Shown piece by piece: positions 9,743 to 15,274 of a stretch of DNA of 64,000 bases. Source of the DNA: Polyangium sp. y55x31 (GTDB lineage Bacteria; Myxococcota_A; Polyangia; Polyangiales; Polyangiaceae); assembly GCF_029946505.1 (NCBI RefSeq), contig NZ_JARZHG010000009.1:234927-298926 (forward strand), read 5' to 3'. The number at the start of each line of letters is the position of its first letter. The stretch's first letter is position 1. Both the position numbers and the translations under genes were made by a program. Below the pieces are notes generated by a model. The model was not told the origin of the DNA and did not search any database. It saw only the letters and a program-made list of their open reading frames with translations.

Positions 9743-12700
9743 TCAATCGAGCTGGCTCGGACCGATGTGCTTCTTGAACCGCCAGCCGTGAATCACGGCG
9801 AGCAGCCGCTCCGGATCGACCGGCTTGGTCACGTAATCGGAGGCTCCGGCCGCGAGCGCCTTCTCCCGATCACCCTTCATCGCCTTGGCGGTGAGCGAGA
9901 TGATGGGGAGCGACTGGAACTGGATGATGTCGCGAATGGCGCGGGTCGCGGTGAGCCCGTCCATCTCCGGCATCATCGTGTCCATGAGCACGAGGTCGAC
10001 GTCGGGGTGCACCTGGAGCAATTCGAGCGCGATGCGCCCGTTCTCCGCGTGGAGCACCTCGATCTTGCGCGCCTCGAGCACCGTCCGCAGGGCGAACAGG
10101 TTGCGGTTGTCGTCGTCCACGAGCAGCACCTTCATTCCGCCGAAATCGGCGTCGGGCGGCAGGCGGAGGACGTCTTTGTCCGTCGACGGCGGCGCGGCGC
10201 TCGAATCGTCGCGGTCCGGCGCCTCCGGCCCGACGTACGTCGCCGGCAGGTACAACGTGAAGGTGCTGCCCCGGTTCGGCGCGCTGACGACGTCGATCGT
10301 GCCGCCGAGCAGGCGCGCGATCTCGCGGCTGATCGTGAGCCCGAGGCCCGTGCCGCCGTATTTGCGGCTCGTGGTCCCGTCGGCCTGCTGGAACGCCTCG
10401 AAGATGAGCTTCTGCTTCTCCGGCGGAATGCCGATCCCGGTGTCCTGCGCGGCAAAACTGATCATCGTCTCGCCCCGATCCCCCGGCGCAACGTCGATCG
10501 TCATGGATACGCCGCCCTCGCTCGTGAACTTGAACGCATTCGACAGGAGGTTCTTCAGGATCTGCTGGAGCCGATTGACGTCAGTGTAAAGCGTCTCCGG
10601 CAGCCGAGGATCCATGCGCACCTCGAACGACAACGCCTTCTGATCGGCGACATGTCGGAACGTCTGCTCCAGGTAATCGCGGACGTCGGCGAGGCGGAAC
10701 GTCCTCGGATCGATCGGCATCTTGCCTGCCTCGACCTTCGAGAGGTCGAGGATCTCGTTGATCAGCGCCAGGAGATCGTTGCCCGACGTGTACACCGTCT
10801 GCGCGAAGCGGACCTGCTCGGCCGTGAGATTGCCGTGCTGGTTGTCCGCCAGCATCTTCGACAGAATGAGCAGGCTGTTCAGCGGCGTCCGGAGCTCGTG
10901 CGACATGTTCGCGAGGAACTCGGACTTGTACTTCGAGATGAGCTGGAGCTGCTCGGCCTTCTCCTCCAGGCTCAGGCTCGCGAGCTCCACCTCGTTGTTC
11001 TTGATTTCGAGGAGCTTCGCCTTTTCGTTGAGCTCCGCCGCCTGCGCTTCGAGCTCCGCGTTCGACTTCTTGAGCTGCTGCAAGAGCTCCTCCGTCCGCA
11101 TGCTGGAGGAGATCATGTTGAGGATGACGCCGATCGAATCCATCAACTGATCGAGGAACGCGAGGTGGTTCGCGATGAACGGCCTGAACGAGGCGAGCTC
11201 GATGACCGCTTTCGTCTCGCCCTCGAAGCTCACCGGCAAGACGACGACGCTCCGCGGCGGCGCCTCCCCCATGCCCGTCGCGATGTAAATGAACCCGTCG
11301 GGCACGTCGTGGAGCATGATGCGCTTCTTCTCGAACGCGCATTGCCCGATCAGGCTCTCGCCCAATCGATAAGAATTCGATAGGTTCTTGCGACCGCCGA
11401 ATCCGTAGCTCGCGATGAGGTGCAGGACGGGCTCGCCGCTCGGGTCGCTCTCCATCATGTAAAACGCGCCGTGCTGGGCGTCCACGAGCGGGGTGAGCTC
11501 GGACATGATGAGCCGGGCGACGGAGACGATGCTGCGCTGGCCCTGCATCATGCTGGAGAACTTGGCGAGGTTCGTCTTGAGCCAGTCCTGCTCCTGGTTC
11601 TTGTGCGTCGTGTCCTTGAGGTTGCCGATCATCTGGTTGATGTTGTCTTTCAGCGCGGCAACCTCGCCTTGCGCCTCGACCGTGATGTACCGGGTCAAAT
11701 CACCCTGCGCGACGGCGGTGGACACCTCGCCGATCGCGCGGACCTGCGCCGTCAGATTGCCGGCGAGCTGATTGACGTTATCGGTCAGATCGCGCCACGT
11801 GCCGGCCGCGCCGGGCACCTTCGCCTGGCCGCCGAGCTTGCCTTCGATACCGACCTCGCGCGCCACCGTGGTCACCTGATCGGCGAAGATGCGCAGCGTG
11901 TCGGTCATGTTGTTGATCGTCTCGGCGAGCGCGGCGACCTCGCCTTTCGCTTCGAGCACGAACTTCTGGCTCAAATCGCCATTGGCGACCGCGGTCACGA
12001 CCTTCACGATGCCGCGCACCTGCTTCGTCAGGTTCGAGGCCATGATGTTGACGTTGTCGGTCAGGTCCTTCCAGACGCCGGATACGCCGGGAACCTTGGC
12101 CTCCGCGCCGAGCTTGCCCTCGATACCGACTTCGCGCGCCACTGTGGTCACCTGATCGGCGAACGTGCGCAACGTGTCGGTCATGTTGTTGATCGTCTCG
12201 GCGAGCGCGGCGACCTCGCCTTTTGCTTCGAGCACGAACTTTTGGCTCAGGTCGCCGGTGGCGACCGCGGTGACGACCTTCACGATGCCGCGCACCTGCT
12301 TCGTCAGATTCGCGGCCATGACGTTGACGTTGTCGGTCAAATCCTTCCAGACGCCGGAGACGCCTTTCACGTCGGCCTGTCCGCCGAGCTTTCCTTCGGT
12401 GCCGACCTCCTTCGCGACGCGCGTCACCTCCGCCGCGAACGAATTGAGCTGGTCGACCATCTTGTTGATGACGTCCTTGATCTGGAGGATCTCGCCTTTG
12501 ACGTCGACCGTGATTTTCTGCGTCAAATCGCCATTGGCGATCGCCGTCGCGACCTTGGACACGTCGCGGAGCTGGACCGTGAGGTTCGACGCCATGGCAT
12601 TGACGTTGTCGGTCAGGTCCTTCCAGGTGCCATACACACCTTTGACGTCGGCCTGGCCGCCGAGCTTGCCTTCGGTGCCGACCTCCTTCGCGACGCGCGT

Positions 12701-15274
12701 CACCTCCGCCGCGAACGAATTGAGCGTGTCGACCATCGTATTGATGGTGCTCTTGAGCTCGAGGATCTCGCCGCGCGCGTCGACCGTGATCTTCTGCGAG
12801 AGATCGCCTTTCGCGACGGCCGTCGTGACCTTCGCGATGTTGCGGACCTGCGTGGTGAGGTTCGCCGCGAGGACGTTGACGTTATCGGTGAGGTCCTTCC
12901 ACGTGCCGGAGACGCCTTTGACGTCCGCCTGGCCGCCGAGCTTGCCTTCGGTGCCGACCTCCTTCGCGACGCGCGTCACTTCCGCGGCAAACGAGCGGAG
13001 CTGGCCGACCATGACGTTGATCGTGTTCTTCAGCTCGAGGATCTCGCCACGCGCATCGACCGTGATCTTTTGCGAGAGATCACCCCTCGCGACGGCCGTC
13101 GTCACATTCGCGATGTTGCGCACCTGCACCGTGAGGTTCGCCGCGAGGACGTTGACGTTGTCCGTCAGGTCTTTCCACGTGCCGGAAATGCCCTTCACTT
13201 CGGCCTGGCCGCCGAGTTTGCCCTCGGTGCCGACCTCCTTCGCGACGCGCGTCACTTCCGCGGCGAACGAATTGAGCTGATCGACCATGACGTTGATCGT
13301 GTTCTTCAGCTCGAGAATCTCGCCGCGCGCGTCGACCGTGATCTTCTGCGAGAGATCACCCTTGGCGACGGCCGTCGTGACATTCGCGATGTTTCGCACC
13401 TGCGTGGTGAGGTTCGCCGCGAGGACGTTGACGTTGTCCGTCAGGTCTTTCCACGTGCCGGACACGCCCTTCACATTGGCCTGACCGCCGAGTTTGCCCT
13501 CGGTGCCGACCTCCTTCGCGACGCGCGTCACCTCCGCGGCGAAGGAGTTCAACTGGTCGACCATCTTGTTGATGACGTCCTTGATCTGGAGGATCTCACC
13601 CTTGACGTCGACGGTGATCTTTTGTGTCAAGTCGCCGTTCGCAATGGCCGTGGCGACCTTCGACACGTCACGGAGCTGCACCGTCAAATTCGCGGCGAGA
13701 CCATTGACGTTGTCCGTCAGGTCTTTCCACGTGCCGGAGACGCCGCGCACCTCGGCCTGGCCGCCGAGCTTGCCCTCGTTGCCGACCTCCTTCGCGACAC
13801 GCGTCACCTCGGCCGCGAACGACGAGAGCTGATCGACCATGACGTTGATCGTGTTCTTCAGCTCGAGGATTTCGCCGCGCGCGTCGACCGTGATCTTCTG
13901 CGAAAGGTCGCCCTTGGCGACGGCGGTCGTCACCTTCGCGATGTTGCGCACCTGGGCCGTCAAATTCGCGGCGAGACCATTGACGTTGTCCGTCAGGTCC
14001 TTCCACGTGCCGGAGACGCCCTGCACCTCGGCCTGGCCGCCGAGCTTGCCCTCGTTGCCGACCTCCTTCGCGACGCGCGTCACCTCGGCGGCGAACGAGC
14101 GGAGCGTGTCGACCATCGTATTGATGGTATTCTTGAGCTCGTAGATCTCGCCGCGCGCGTCGACCGTGATCTTCTGCGAGAGGTCACCATTCGCGACCGC
14201 GGTCGTCACCTTCGCGATGCTGCGGACCTGGGCCGTCAAATTGGCGGCGAGGCCATTGACGTTGTCCGTCAGATCTTTCCACGTGCCGGAGACGCCCTTC
14301 ACGTCCGCCTGGCCGCCGAGCTTTCCCTCGGTGCCGACTTCCTTCGCGACGCGCGTCACTTCGGCCGCGAACGACGAGAGCTGATCGACCATGACGTTGA
14401 TCGTGTTCTTCAGCTCGAGGATTTCGCCGCGCGCGTCGACCGTGATCTTCTGCGAAAGGTCACCCTTGGCGACGGCGGTCGTCACCTTCGCGATGTTACG
14501 GACCTGGGCCGTCAAATTGGCGGCGAGGCCATTGACGTTGTCCGTCAGGTCTTTCCACGTGCCGGAGACGCCCTTCACGTCCGCCTGGCCGCCGAGCTTG
14601 CCTTCGTTGCCGACTTCCTTCGCGACGCGCGTCACCTCGGCGGCGAACGAGTTGAGCTGATCGACCATCGAATTGACGGTGGTGCCGATGCGAAGGAATT
14701 CGCCGCGCACCGGGCGACCGTCGATTTCGAGGACCATCTTCTGCGAGAGGTCGCCGCGGGCGACGGCCGTGATGACACGCGCGACCTCGTTCGTCGGGGC
14801 CACGAGGTCGGAGATGAGCTGATTGACGGACGCCATGCAGCTCGCCCACGACCCCTTCGCGGGGCCGACGGAGGCGCGCTCGTGCATCTTGCCTTCCTGA
14901 CCGACGACCTTGCCCACGCGAACGAGCTCGCTCGTCATGTGCTCGTTCAGGCCGATGATGTCGTTCAGGAGCTCGCCCGTGCGGCTCAGAATCCCGTCCT
15001 TCTGGTATTCGAAGCGGACGGTGAAGTCGCCTTGCTTGACGGCTTTCAGCACTTCCTGGAGGTGCTCGACCTCGGCGCGGTTGTCGTCCGAGAGGCGCTC
15101 CCACTCGGCAATGGTCGAGGCGGCTCCGCGGCTCCGGGCGCTGCGGCCGAGGCTCCTCACGCCGCTCTTGGCCGTGCCTCTCCCATGCCCATCGACACCG
15201 TTCGAGGTCTTGTGCGTGCCATTCGCACGCACGGTCCGGCTCTGCTTGGAGACGACGACTTCTTTTGCGCTCAT
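9743..15274 (-). CDS. poly-HAMP hybrid sensor histidine kinase (about 12 × 92-aa di-HAMP units, GAF, HisKA, HATPase_c, C-terminal REC)
   Basis: Tandem units …[90 protein letters not shown]… repeated about 12 times. Followed by a GAF-like region, H-box [14 protein letters not shown] boxes ([23 protein letters not shown]) and a receiver ([11 protein letters not shown]…DTMMPEMDG…TKP). ATG at 15274; an in-frame GTG at 15316 is also possible. Confidence 0.9.
11570..14765. repeat. about 3.2 kb of tandem 276-bp coding repeats (poly-HAMP array), units nearly identical at nucleotide level
   Basis: 276-bp (92-codon) periodicity is visible directly. Antisense ORFs recur with near-identical translations at 276/552-bp offsets (e.g. 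starts 11889/12165 and 13287/13839/14391). Confidence 0.85.

What the first reader, a model, noticed from the sequence alone, without database searches (positions are those of the whole stretch)
9743..15274. Poly-HAMP hybrid kinase built from about 12 nearly identical 276-bp units, in an operon with a second hybrid kinase
The units are close to identical at the nucleotide level. That implies recent expansion or ongoing concerted evolution (unequal crossover) and makes this locus a likely assembly-collapse hotspot. The gene is followed 5 nt downstream by a REC-GAF-HK-REC hybrid kinase, suggesting a multistep phosphorelay. Each kinase ends in its own receiver.
Basis: partly seen in the sequence, partly recalled or inferred. 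Interest (0 to 1): 0.55.

Follow-up and report, generated by a model that had tools for sequence, protein, structure and literature searches.

The report
Ancient poly-HAMP kinase, not recent repeat
This is an ordinary member of an already described family of soluble bacterial sensor kinases with a long rod of repeated HAMP modules; its repeats look alike because the protein is very tightly conserved, not because the DNA was recently copied.

Summary
The gene is real. It lies on the minus strand at 9743-15274 and encodes 1843 aa. The protein has a basic N-tail, 25 HAMP domains (one leading HAMP plus 12 di-HAMP units of 92 aa / 276 bp), then GAF-HisKA-HATPase-REC. A REC-GAF-HisKA-HATPase-REC kinase (7593-9737) starts 5 nt downstream.

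The units are not near-identical in DNA. Pairwise nucleotide identity is 66-96%, the median interior dS is 0.58, and the longest exact repeat is 101 bp.

Against Polyangium jinanense, the array has 114 synonymous and 0 non-synonymous codon differences. Site patterns support position-by-position orthology (2842 sites against 37). All close relatives have 12 units, including those with complete genomes. Recent expansion and assembly collapse are therefore refuted.

Homogenisation does occur, but slowly and without changing the unit count. Interior unit types switch between genera, and distant phyla have lost positional orthology.

The protein belongs to the published kinase-type poly-HAMP ("class III") family: M. 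xanthus AskA/AskB, PDB 9trk, fungal Nik1. The two-gene layout mirrors askB-askC. I found a K2-type REC-first gene next to the poly-HAMP gene in 52 of 80 species-representative loci from many phyla.

Verdict: known kind, low interest, with modest new evolutionary detail.

The parts
9743..15274 (-). K1: a soluble poly-HAMP hybrid histidine kinase of 1843 aa. The start is taken as ATG 15274; an in-frame GTG at 15316 is an alternative.
   Evidence: ORF list and translation. Pfam: HAMP x12, HAMP_2 x12, GAF_2, HisKA, HATPase_c, Response_reg. GC3 is 0.90 in this frame. No TM-like segment. The 99%-identical P. jinanense protein P0028 starts at the same MSAKEVV.
15065..15274 (-). N-terminal low-complexity tail (aa 1 to about 70). 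It is basic, with a net charge of about +9 over aa 1-50.
   Evidence: Composition count. Comparable 50-105 aa basic tails occur in most members of the ~1850-aa subfamily but not in most other family members.
14924..15064 (-). Leading canonical HAMP ('D1' type, about aa 71-117, ...[12 protein letters not shown]...).
   Evidence: Sequence reading. The position matches the 'D1 HAMP always first' rule described in PMC13446029. The boundaries are approximate.
14648..14923 (-). Di-HAMP unit 0 (aa 118-209). It is divergent: a non-canonical HAMP plus a canonical HAMP with a 5-aa insertion (GRPVR), which gives 97-aa spacing to unit 1.
   Evidence: Unit HMM hit with 97-aa first spacing. It aligns residue by residue with the AskA crystal construct 9trk, including the GRP[VL]RGEF insertion.
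11612..14647 (-). Eleven di-HAMP units (aa 210-1221) in exact 92-aa / 276-bp register. The type order is A A A B A A A B C C D.
   Evidence: Register and unit sequences. TRF period 276. Type strings. A conserved Trp occurs in every non-canonical HAMP.
11120..11536 (-). GAF domain of K1 (aa 1247-1385).
   Evidence: Pfam GAF_2, E = 9.3e-16.
10241..10927 (-). HisKA (DHp, aa 1450-1517, H-box SHELRTP with His1459) and HATPase_c (aa 1565-1678) of K1.
   Evidence: Pfam. Motif search places SHELRTP from aa 1458.
9791..10129 (-). C-terminal receiver of K1 (aa 1716-1828, acceptor Asp in [11 protein letters not shown], about D1765).
   Evidence: Pfam Response_reg, E = 1.9e-27. Motif search.
9738..9742 (-). 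5-nt spacer (GACGC) between the K1 stop codon TGA and the K2 start ATG.
   Evidence: Sequence. No terminator-like site lies between the two genes.
7593..9737 (-). K2: a REC-GAF-HisKA-HATPase-REC hybrid kinase of 714 aa (H-box from aa 351; acceptor Asp about D66 in REC1 and about D638 in REC2).
   Evidence: Translation. Pfam. Motifs. It is 93.6% identical to the gene in the same position in P. jinanense.
9318..9701 (-). REC1 of K2 (about aa 13-140). This receiver type is conserved next to poly-HAMP kinases in many phyla.
   Evidence: phmmer with this domain scores 96-259 bits on a neighbouring REC-first gene in 52 of 80 loci. Poly-HAMP kinases' own receivers score at most 68 bits, and other receivers have a median of 44 bits.

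Best explanation
K1 is a cytoplasmic member of the published kinase-associated poly-HAMP family (bacterial 'class III' hybrid histidine kinases: M. xanthus AskA/AskB, Sorangium Amb07; fungal Nik1/Os-1/TcsC).

Structure and signalling (inferred from the family):
- As a homodimer it should form a long four-helix coiled-coil rod of 25 HAMP domains: one leading canonical HAMP, then 12 alternating non-canonical/canonical di-HAMP modules.
- The rod is followed by GAF, DHp/CA and one receiver.
- Under the family's gearbox model, alternating HAMP types pass opposite helix rotations down the rod to the DHp helices. This sets autophosphorylation at the H-box His (His1459) and transfer to the receiver Asp (about D1765).
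- The co-transcribed K2 carries an N-terminal receiver of a type that travels with poly-HAMP kinases across phyla. I infer that K2 is the cognate partner (AskC-like) and that its kinase is gated by K1 through that receiver.

Evolution (shown here):
- The repeat array is an ancient, length-stable structure under very strong purifying selection.
- Its units look alike because the protein is conserved, helped by a GC3 of about 0.9 and rare count-preserving gene conversions among interior units. There was no recent amplification.

Shown: domain anatomy, family membership by sequence, synonymous divergence, positional orthology, stable count, conserved synteny.
Inferred: dimeric rod, rotation mechanism, phosphotransfer route, physiological signal.
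For: Family membership:
- Pfam architecture.
- PDB 9trk/9trj (AskA HAMP segments fused to GCN4) match the array from unit 0 onward at E = 2.5e-103, including the insertion in unit 0.
- The family definition in PMC13446029 is C/D HAMP types, D1 first, then GAF-DHp-CA-REC, soluble. All of these are seen here.
- There are no TM segments.
- More than 594 species-level loci and fungal relatives were recovered.

Evolution:
- Nucleotide identity between units is 66-96%.
- The synonymous codon-identity excess is 0-0.4 for most unit pairs.
- The median interior dS is 0.58.
- Against P. jinanense, the array has dN = 0 and dS = 0.17 (114 synonymous, 0 non-synonymous codon differences). The tail has 57 synonymous and 15 non-synonymous differences; Fisher p = 2e-7.
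- Site patterns: 2842 support orthology, 37 support concerted change, 13 show the third pattern.
- All close relatives have 12 units.
- The array is more conserved than the catalytic tail: 95% against 82% with Sorangium, and 87.5% against 75% with Binataceae.
- The count is kept while types switch, for example AAABAAABCCD against AAABBAABCCD against AABABAABBCD.
- Window units 5/6 have dS 0.21, and Sorangium units 4/5 have a synonymous index of 0.84.

Partner:
- A REC-(PAS|GAF)-HisKA-HATPase gene lies next to the poly-HAMP gene in Myxococcota, Bdellovibrionota, Acidobacteriota, Gaiellales, Nostoc and betaproteobacteria.
- askC lies immediately downstream of askB, and the AskC receiver interacts with an AskA receiver (PMC7643160).
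Against: - No experiment bears on this protein.
- No Hpt domain is present in K1, K2 or the ten neighbouring ORFs scanned, so a classical His-Asp-His-Asp relay cannot be drawn.
- K1 has one receiver, whereas AskA is described with at least three (a Rec3 is mentioned). K2 has GAF plus an extra receiver, whereas the AskC-like proteins have PAS. Strict orthology with the Ask proteins is therefore not established.
- 19 of the 80 loci with adequate flanks lack a partner scoring at least 95 bits within 8 kb, although about ten of these have 78-94-bit hits.
- The input signal is unknown. In M. xanthus, ambruticin bound AskC only weakly in vitro (KD about 300 uM).
- Both homologue sets used for unit counts were ranked by similarity to a 12-unit query or by bit score, so the '12 is modal' statement may be biased.
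Confidence: 0.85

Rival explanations
1. One reading: the array is a recent intragenic amplification, or is being actively homogenised by unequal crossover. Its unit number would then be unstable among strains.
For: - A few unit pairs are similar in DNA: 1/3 at 96% (dS 0.14) and 5/6 at 92% (dS 0.21), with a 101-bp identical tract between units 1 and 3.
- Window units 1 and 3 are slightly closer to each other (index 0.74) than unit 1 is to its P. jinanense orthologue (0.61).
- In Sorangium and Anaeromyxobacter, within-genome synonymous similarity exceeds between-genome similarity.
- PMC13446029 also speaks of 'intragenic amplification'.
Against: - The median interior dS is 0.58, and the two B-type units (4 and 8) are 92% identical in protein but saturated at synonymous sites (index 0.06).
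- Site patterns are 2842 for orthology against 37 for concerted change, versus P. jinanense.
- The unit number is 12 in every close relative examined.
- Terminal units are orthologous across phyla.
- Type changes preserve the count. This points to rare conversion rather than unequal crossover.
Confidence: 0.08
2. Assembly artefact: the array is collapsed or expanded, so the true gene has a different number of units.
For: - Repeats with a 276-bp period are generically hard for short reads.
- 4-5 of the 80 contigs from other species begin inside a poly-HAMP array (L029, L060, L064, L065, L080).
Against: - No exact repeat of 127 bp or more exists in the array, and only one of 101 bp.
- The reading frame is intact with exact 92-aa register.
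- Independent assemblies of P. jinanense, P. fumosum, P. spumosum and P. aurulentum (12.3-Mb contig), Sorangium So ce1128 (complete chromosome) and Sandaracinus (10.75-Mb contig) all give 12 units in the same order or nearly so.
Confidence: 0.03
3. Pure stasis: all 12 units were fixed before the bacterial phyla diverged and have evolved independently ever since. On this view no gene conversion has occurred, and similarity is due only to purifying selection and codon bias.
For: - Oligoflexus units show no within-genome excess of synonymous identity (about 0-0.3) despite 93% protein identity among units.
- The last unit and the C-type units keep positional orthology everywhere.
Against: - In distant phyla, interior units are 87-90% identical within an array. 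Between phyla they are only about 77% identical, equally for the same and for different positions.
- Unit types at interior positions 3-9 differ among genera.
- Some pairs have a low dS.
Confidence: 0.05
4. The rod is mainly a scaffold or DNA/nucleoid-associated platform rather than a signal wire. On this view the basic N-tail and the HTH-like hits bind DNA, as reported for AskB, and kinase output is secondary.
For: - The N-tail has a net charge of about +9 over aa 1-50, and similar tails occur across the subfamily.
- Sub-threshold SpoIIID/HTH_6 hits occur in every unit.
- AskB binds PmrpC DNA in vitro, and the basic tail of FrzCD binds DNA (PMC7643160; PMC13446029).
- The array surface is more conserved than the catalytic domains.
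Against: - The HTH-like hits are below the Pfam thresholds and coincide with the canonical HAMP helix-connector.
- All catalytic and acceptor motifs of K1 and K2 are intact.
- Most family members lack the tail.
Confidence: 0.15

Closest known systems
Myxococcus xanthus AskA (MXAN_0712) / AskB (MXAN_6735) poly-HAMP hybrid kinases, with AskC (MXAN_6734) downstream of askB
   Same: - Soluble poly-HAMP array of alternating non-canonical and canonical HAMPs in 92-aa di-HAMP modules, followed by GAF-DHp-CA-REC.
- The AskA crystal construct (9trk) aligns with units 0-2 at E = 2.5e-103.
- A second hybrid kinase beginning with a receiver lies directly downstream, as askC does after askB. The AskB-like locus L024 has a REC-PAS-HK gene whose receiver is 54% identical to K2 REC1.
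   Different: - K1 has 25 HAMPs and one receiver. AskB has 31 HAMPs, and AskA is described with at least three receivers.
- Overall identity to Cystobacterineae homologues is only about 62-64%.
- K2 uses GAF and has an extra C-terminal receiver, whereas AskC-like proteins use PAS.
- No link to development or ambruticin was tested, and there is no PKS cluster in the window.
Kinase-associated poly-HAMP arrays as classified by Coles et al. 2026 (Protein Sci, PMC13446029)
   Same: All listed family features are present: D1 HAMP first, C/D alternation, conserved Trp in the non-canonical HAMP, fixed linker lengths, a GAF-kinase-REC tail, and no TM or input domain.
   Different: Nothing structural differs. 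The paper attributes near-identical modules to intragenic amplification. Here the DNA shows old, synonymously diverged units.
Fungal group III hybrid histidine kinases (Nik1/Os-1/Bos1/TcsC)
   Same: - 92-aa HAMP repeat units followed by HisKA-HATPase-REC, and soluble.
- Fungal proteins are retrieved by the search. They carry 18-27 units at predominantly 92-aa spacing, with some irregular spacings.
   Different: - No precomputed GAF hit is listed for the three fungal proteins.
- From the literature rather than from tests here: they feed a Ypd1 (Hpt)-Ssk1 relay into the HOG MAPK pathway, and classic ascomycete members have fewer units (5-6).
- No Hpt was found in this window.
Aer2 / FrzCD multi-HAMP and chemoreceptor-type poly-HAMP arrays
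   Same: Concatenated HAMPs with alternating conformations. Aer2 (3vol) is a weak hit at E = 7.6e-6.
   Different: These proteins have different HAMP sequence groups (A/B) and an MCP signalling output instead of a kinase. According to PMC13446029 they have an independent origin.

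Membership tests
Kinase-associated poly-HAMP array proteins (bacterial class III HHK; AskA/AskB type) | Long uninterrupted array of di-HAMP modules (non-canonical plus canonical HAMP) with a fixed module length | tested here: met
   12 units: 11 at exactly 92-aa spacing and the first at 97 aa. Pfam finds HAMP x12 and HAMP_2 x12.
Kinase-associated poly-HAMP array proteins (bacterial class III HHK; AskA/AskB type) | Sequence homology of the HAMP modules to the structurally solved AskA array | tested here: met
   phmmer against the PDB: 9trk_A at E = 2.5e-103 and 9trj_A at E = 5.2e-54, aligned without gaps over 228 residues.
Kinase-associated poly-HAMP array proteins (bacterial class III HHK; AskA/AskB type) | Distinct first canonical HAMP (D1) at the head of the array | tested here: inconclusive
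   A HAMP-like segment (aa ~71-117, KQGDFTVRF connector) precedes unit 0 and is conserved in the orthologues. It was assigned by eye, not by the authors' profiles.
Kinase-associated poly-HAMP array proteins (bacterial class III HHK; AskA/AskB type) | Array followed by GAF, DHp (HisKA), CA (HATPase_c) and at least one receiver | tested here: met
   Pfam: GAF_2 1247-1385, HisKA 1450-1517, HATPase_c 1565-1678, Response_reg 1716-1828.
Kinase-associated poly-HAMP array proteins (bacterial class III HHK; AskA/AskB type) | Soluble: no transmembrane segment and no upstream sensor domain | tested here: met
   The maximum 19-aa Kyte-Doolittle hydropathy is 1.33, and that window lies inside the GAF domain. 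The N-terminus is a low-complexity basic tail.
Kinase-associated poly-HAMP array proteins (bacterial class III HHK; AskA/AskB type) | Conserved Trp in the non-canonical HAMP that mediates inter-HAMP contacts | tested here: met
   A Trp occurs at the same position in all 12 non-canonical HAMPs (G[TV]W[KR]DLTDNVN; GSWASCM in unit 0).
Kinase-associated poly-HAMP array proteins (bacterial class III HHK; AskA/AskB type) | Homodimeric four-helix rod with zig-zag helix-rotation states | not testable with these tools
   K1 exceeds the 1200-aa limit and the predictor takes a single chain; I did not attempt a model. Inferred from 9trk homology only.
Ask system of M. xanthus (AskA/AskB/AskC, ambruticin/glycerol sensing, development) | Orthology of K1 to AskA or AskB (same array length and receiver number) | tested here: not met
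   K1 has 12 units and 1 REC. The AskB-like protein of L024 has 15 units (31 HAMPs) and is about 64% identical. K1 belongs to a separate ~1850-aa single-REC subfamily.
Ask system of M. xanthus (AskA/AskB/AskC, ambruticin/glycerol sensing, development) | REC-first hybrid kinase encoded immediately downstream (AskC position) | tested here: met
   K2 starts 5 nt downstream. Its REC1 scores 142 bits (54% identity) on the downstream REC-PAS-HK gene of L024.
Ask system of M. xanthus (AskA/AskB/AskC, ambruticin/glycerol sensing, development) | Response to ambruticin or glycerol; control of mrpC/fruA | not testable with these tools
   This needs genetics and biochemistry. No ambruticin-type PKS genes are in the window.
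Multistep His-Asp-His-Asp phosphorelay | An Hpt domain or protein linking the hybrid kinase receiver to a terminal response regulator | tested here: not met
   No Hpt hit was found in K1, K2 or the ten neighbouring ORFs scanned. One may be encoded elsewhere in the genome.

The most novel reading that the evidence does not exclude
The poly-HAMP rod may itself be the functional surface, acting as a sensor or docking platform, and its length may be under stabilising selection.

Supporting observations:
- The array evolves more slowly than the catalytic core: dN = 0 over 1012 codons at dS = 0.17, and 87-95% identity across families where the kinase tail is 75-82%.
- It keeps exactly 12 di-HAMP modules while interior module types are overwritten by gene conversion.
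- It travels through at least eight phyla together with one specific REC-first kinase.

This would make 'poly-HAMP kinase plus REC-first kinase' an ancient, general two-kinase module, of which M. xanthus AskB-AskC is one instance.
Probability: 0.35. Interest if true: 0.5.

Novelty: new member of a known kind. Interest (0 to 1): 0.25.

Why it matters
For the genome scan, this locus can be closed as a correctly assembled, ordinary member of a published family.

For people who study HAMP signalling it offers three small, testable points:
- Module similarity in these arrays is maintained by very strong purifying selection plus rare count-preserving conversion, not by recent amplification.
- The array is more constrained than the kinase domains. 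This argues that the rod does more than connect.
- The askB-askC-like pairing with a particular receiver type is widespread, which nominates the partner receiver as the first phosphotransfer target to test.

The family is also the bacterial counterpart of the fungal group III kinases targeted by fludioxonil and ambruticin.

Tried and rejected
- Exact-sequence look-up of K1 in public assemblies found nothing on record. The source strain was therefore not identified; the closest relative is P. jinanense SDU13, at 99% amino-acid identity and about 96% nucleotide identity within the array units.
- An Rfam scan of 7000-17500 gave no hit. The promoter/terminator consensus scan gave nothing above the shuffled expectation and nothing between K1 and K2.
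- I looked for an ambruticin-type biosynthetic context, because Amb07 is a poly-HAMP kinase inside that cluster. Pfam on 20 neighbouring ORFs shows cytochromes, a methyltransferase, Ser/Thr kinases, a teneurin/RHS-like protein, an S49 peptidase and TPR proteins, but no PKS.
- I looked for an Hpt protein nearby and found none.
- I considered a universal basic N-terminal tail as a family feature and rejected it. It is typical of the ~1850-aa subfamily only.
- I considered the SpoIIID/HTH_6 hits as real DNA-binding domains. They are sub-threshold and periodic with the HAMP units, so I treat them as spurious.
- A literature search for concerted evolution of HAMP arrays returned nothing.
- My regex-based array/tail split failed for Anaeromyxobacter, Oligoflexus, Bdellovibrio and Bacteriovoracaceae. 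Array-versus-tail conservation is therefore reported for six relatives only.
- Structure prediction was not run. K1 exceeds the size limit, and a homologous crystal structure exists.

Full report
**1. What is in the sequence**

The finding's coordinates enclose one long minus-strand ORF (9743..15316). I take the ATG at 15274 as the start, because the 99%-identical Polyangium jinanense protein begins with the same MSAKEVV. An in-frame GTG 14 codons upstream cannot be excluded.

The product is 1843 aa. Pfam finds 12 HAMP and 12 HAMP_2 matches, then GAF_2 (1247-1385), HisKA (1450-1517), HATPase_c (1565-1678) and a receiver (1716-1828). There is no transmembrane-like segment, and the first ~50 residues are low-complexity with a net charge of about +9.

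Five nucleotides after the TGA stop (spacer GACGC), a second minus-strand gene begins (7593..9737, 714 aa). It encodes REC-GAF-HisKA-HATPase-REC. H-box histidines and receiver aspartates are intact in both proteins. The next gene downstream (NnrU/cytochrome c, 6407-7564) is convergent. Upstream lies about 1.1 kb with no convincing ORF or Rfam hit, then a methyltransferase. The unit is therefore a two-gene cassette.

**2. The repeat**

TRF reports a 276-bp period with 10.8 copies over 11663-14650, but only 82-84% matches.

At protein level, eleven units lie in perfect 92-aa register (aa 210-1221; window 14647-11612). They are preceded by a divergent unit 0 (aa 118-209) that carries a 5-aa insertion, and by a leading canonical HAMP. 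Each 92-aa unit is a di-HAMP: a 44-aa non-canonical HAMP ([13 protein letters not shown]...[11 protein letters not shown]...) plus a 48-aa canonical HAMP (...[43 protein letters not shown]..). This gives 13 canonical plus 12 non-canonical, or 25 HAMPs in total.

By the canonical half, the units fall into types with the order A A A B A A A B C C D.

**3. The units are not near-identical in DNA**

- Pairwise nucleotide identity of units 1-11 is 66-96%. Only pairs 1/3 (96%), 5/6 (92%) and 1/2 (90%) reach 90%.
- For many pairs of like units, amino-acid identity equals or exceeds nucleotide identity. Differences concentrate at third codon positions, typically 25-40 of 92.
- GC3 is about 0.9, so I compared observed identical-codon counts at identical residues with the expectation from codon usage. 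The excess index is 0-0.4 for most pairs, which is near saturation. It is 0.74 for 1/3, 0.70 for 5/6 and 0.55 for 1/2.
- The two B-type units (4 and 8) are 92% identical in protein, yet their index is 0.06.
- NG86 gives a median dS of 0.58 and a median dN of 0.07 for interior units, with a minimum dS of 0.14 for 1/3.
- The longest exact repeat in the array is 101 bp (13809/14361, units 1 and 3), and no 127-mer is repeated.

That is what the sequence shows.

**4. Comparison with relatives**

The closest proteins are from Polyangium jinanense (99%), P. fumosum and P. spumosum (97%), P. aurulentum (90-92%), Sorangium sp. So ce1128 (89%) and Sandaracinus amylolyticus (83%). The window is therefore from a Polyangium.

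A scan of one genome per species returned more than 594 loci across many groups: Myxococcota, Bdellovibrionota, Oligoflexia, cyanobacteria, Acidobacteriota, Verrucomicrobiota, Actinomycetota, Planctomycetota, Eremiobacterota and betaproteobacteria. Fungal proteins also appear.

A profile of the 92-aa unit finds exactly 92-aa spacing everywhere, with one longer first spacing. All five Polyangium proteins, Sorangium, Sandaracinus, Anaeromyxobacter, Oligoflexus and Bdellovibrio have 12 units. Among 71 complete genes from the genome scan, 12 is the commonest count (32 genes), followed by 13 (15 genes), with a range of 7-18. In the protein search, counts reach 20 in bacteria and 27 in a fungus. Both hit lists are ranked by similarity or score, so the modal value may be biased.

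**5. Orthology against concerted evolution**

*Short time scale.* Against P. jinanense SDU13, the eleven regular units are 94-98% identical in DNA and 100% identical in protein. In 1012 codons there are 114 synonymous and 0 non-synonymous differences. The GAF-kinase-REC tail has 57 synonymous and 15 non-synonymous differences in 623 codons (Fisher p = 2e-7). dS is similar in the two regions (0.17 and 0.15). Four-sequence site patterns give 2842 sites for positional orthology, 37 for within-genome similarity and 13 for the third pattern. There has therefore been essentially no homogenisation since these lineages split, and the array is under extreme purifying selection.

*Conservation of array against tail.* The array is also more conserved than the catalytic tail over longer distances: 95% against 82% with Sorangium, 88% against 81% with Sandaracinus, and 87.5% against 75% with a Binataceae MAG.

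*Long time scale.* The picture changes.
- Unit 0, the C-type units and the last unit keep positional orthology in all taxa.
- Interior types differ among genera while the total stays at 12. The window clade is AAABAAABCCD. P. aurulentum and Sorangium are AAABBAABCCD, Sandaracinus is AABABAABBCD, Anaeromyxobacter is AABBBAABCCD, Oligoflexus and Bdellovibrio are AAAAAAAACCD, and Nostoc, Bryobacterales and Undibacterium are AAAAAAAAACD.
- The low dS of window units 5/6 (0.21) and the high synonymous index of Sorangium units 4/5 (0.84) fit count-preserving overwriting at position 5.
- In distant phyla, interior units are 87-90% identical within an array. They are only about 77% identical to the window's units, equally at the same and at different positions.
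- Oligoflexus shows no within-genome synonymous excess at all.

*Conclusion.* The array is ancient and length-stable. Rare gene conversion among interior units acts more slowly than synonymous saturation but faster than amino-acid divergence between phyla.

**6. Assembly**

There are no long exact repeats, the frame and register are intact, and independent assemblies give the same 12-unit order. These include a complete Sorangium chromosome and 10-12-Mb contigs of Sandaracinus and P. aurulentum. Collapse here is therefore very unlikely.

The generic worry is not baseless for the family, however. Four or five of the 80 contigs from other species start inside an array.

**7. What it is**

The architecture matches the kinase-associated poly-HAMP family described by Coles et al. 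2026 (PMC13446029). That family is defined as soluble proteins with a D1 HAMP first, alternating non-canonical (C) and canonical (D) HAMPs in di-HAMP modules, then GAF-DHp-CA-REC.

The AskA 6-HAMP crystal construct (PDB 9trk) aligns without gaps to units 0-2 at E = 2.5e-103. The alignment includes the insertion in unit 0 and the conserved Trp.

Marcos-Torres et al. 2020 (PMC7643160) showed that M. xanthus AskA and AskB (both poly-HAMP kinases) and AskC (a hybrid kinase encoded immediately downstream of askB) interact. They control development via mrpC and mediate responses to ambruticin and glycerol. A related kinase, Amb07, sits in the Sorangium ambruticin gene cluster. Fungal group III kinases (Nik1/Os-1/TcsC) are the eukaryotic relatives.

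K1 is not a strict AskA or AskB orthologue. It has one receiver and 25 HAMPs, it is about 62-64% identical to Cystobacterineae homologues, and it belongs to a ~1850-aa subfamily shared by Polyangiaceae, Sandaracinus, Anaeromyxobacter, Bdellovibrionota, Oligoflexus and Binataceae.

**8. The partner kinase**

The gene directly downstream of the poly-HAMP kinase encodes REC-(PAS or GAF)-HisKA-HATPase(-REC) in loci from Myxococcus, Bdellovibrio, Oligoflexus, Gaiellaceae, Bryobacterales, Nostoc, Terriglobia and Ramlibacter.

I used K2's first receiver as a probe against all ORFs of the 80 loci.
- The neighbouring REC-first gene scores 96-259 bits in 52 loci. In 43 it is downstream on the same strand (mostly within 100 nt), in 5 it is upstream on the same strand, in 2 it is divergent, and in 2 it is unresolved.
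- The poly-HAMP kinases' own receivers score at most 68 bits, and other receivers have a median of 44 bits.
- K2 REC1 is only 35-37% identical to K2 REC2 and to K1's receiver, but 44-54% identical to the partner receivers of other phyla.

This is good comparative evidence that this receiver type is the cognate partner of poly-HAMP kinases. It fits the reported AskA-receiver/AskC-receiver interaction.

No Hpt domain occurs in K1, K2 or the ten neighbouring ORFs scanned. The route of phosphoryl flow remains inferred.

**9. Mechanism I commit to**

K1 is a cytoplasmic dimeric rod of 25 HAMPs. Alternating HAMP types relay opposite helix rotations (the family's gearbox model) to the GAF and DHp segments. 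This sets autophosphorylation at the H-box His (His1459) and transfer to about D1765.

K1 communicates with K2 through K2's N-terminal receiver, and K2 in turn controls its own His (H-box from aa 351) and C-terminal Asp (about D638).

The input is unknown. By analogy it could be an osmotic or physical cue or a small molecule, and it could act at the rod, the basic N-tail or the GAF domain.

Family membership I rate at about 0.95 or higher. The evolutionary conclusions I rate at about 0.85. The K1-to-K2 REC1 wiring I rate at about 0.5.

**10. Verdict**

The interpretation of recent expansion, homogenisation or collapse is refuted for this locus.

The object is an uncharacterised member of a published family, so novelty and interest are low. 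The modest new points are:
- dN = 0 in the array, and an array that is more conserved than the kinase core;
- count-preserving replacement of module types;
- the cross-phylum linkage to one receiver-first kinase type.

Noticed in passing
window 27150-34139 (-): A 2330-aa ORF with teneurin-like TTR, NHL and YD-shell domains plus RHS repeats. It looks like a large bacterial teneurin/RHS-type toxin-shell protein.
   Followed up: no
window 41973-48740 (-): A 2256-aa ORF in a ~75% GC stretch with GC3 of 0.92. Its only Pfam signal is a weak TPR hit. It is followed by an S49 peptidase and a zinc-ribbon/TPR protein on the same strand.
   Followed up: no
window 15275-16449: About 1.1 kb upstream of the poly-HAMP gene has no GC3-supported ORF, no Rfam hit and no above-chance promoter match. 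This is an unusually long non-coding leader or promoter region for this genome.
   Followed up: partly
window 11612-14923 (-), every 276 bp: Sub-threshold Pfam hits to SpoIIID and HTH_6 (RpiR) fall within the poly-HAMP array. In the AskA/AskB paper the same two families were read as repeated partial DNA-binding domains overlapping the HAMPs. Because these hits are sub-threshold and lie inside HAMP units, they are probably spurious.
   Followed up: partly
window 15125-15274 (-), K1 aa 1-50: The N-terminal tail is low-complexity and basic (net charge about +9). Comparable 50-105-aa basic tails occur in most members of the ~1850-aa single-receiver subfamily, but most other poly-HAMP kinases have almost no tail. 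It resembles the DNA-binding tail reported for FrzCD.
   Followed up: partly
window 13544-13819 and 12440-12715 (-), units 4 and 8: The 'B-type' canonical HAMP (..[44 protein letters not shown]..) occurs at every fourth unit here. It sits at different interior positions in other genera and is absent from Oligoflexus, Bdellovibrio and Nostoc. It recurs in an unrelated 17-unit metagenomic protein (P0010). The two copies here are saturated at synonymous sites. The role of this subtype is unexplained.
   Followed up: partly
L029, L060, L064, L065, L080 (loci): In these assemblies, most of them MAGs, the contig begins inside the poly-HAMP array. Arrays of this family therefore do break some short-read assemblies, even though the window's array is unambiguous.
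   Followed up: no
L001 (P. jinanense SDU13, NZ_JAGTJK010000009.1): The contig ends about 235 bp after the K2 orthologue, whereas the window continues for another 7.5 kb. The window is therefore from a different assembly or strain. Its exact K1 protein is not on record in the public gene index.
   Followed up: partly
window 17199-19196 (-) and 6407-7564 (+): A multihaem MtrC/MtrF-like cytochrome and a cytochrome c-NnrU fusion lie on either side of the kinase cassette, the former about 1.9 kb upstream. No functional link was examined.
   Followed up: no
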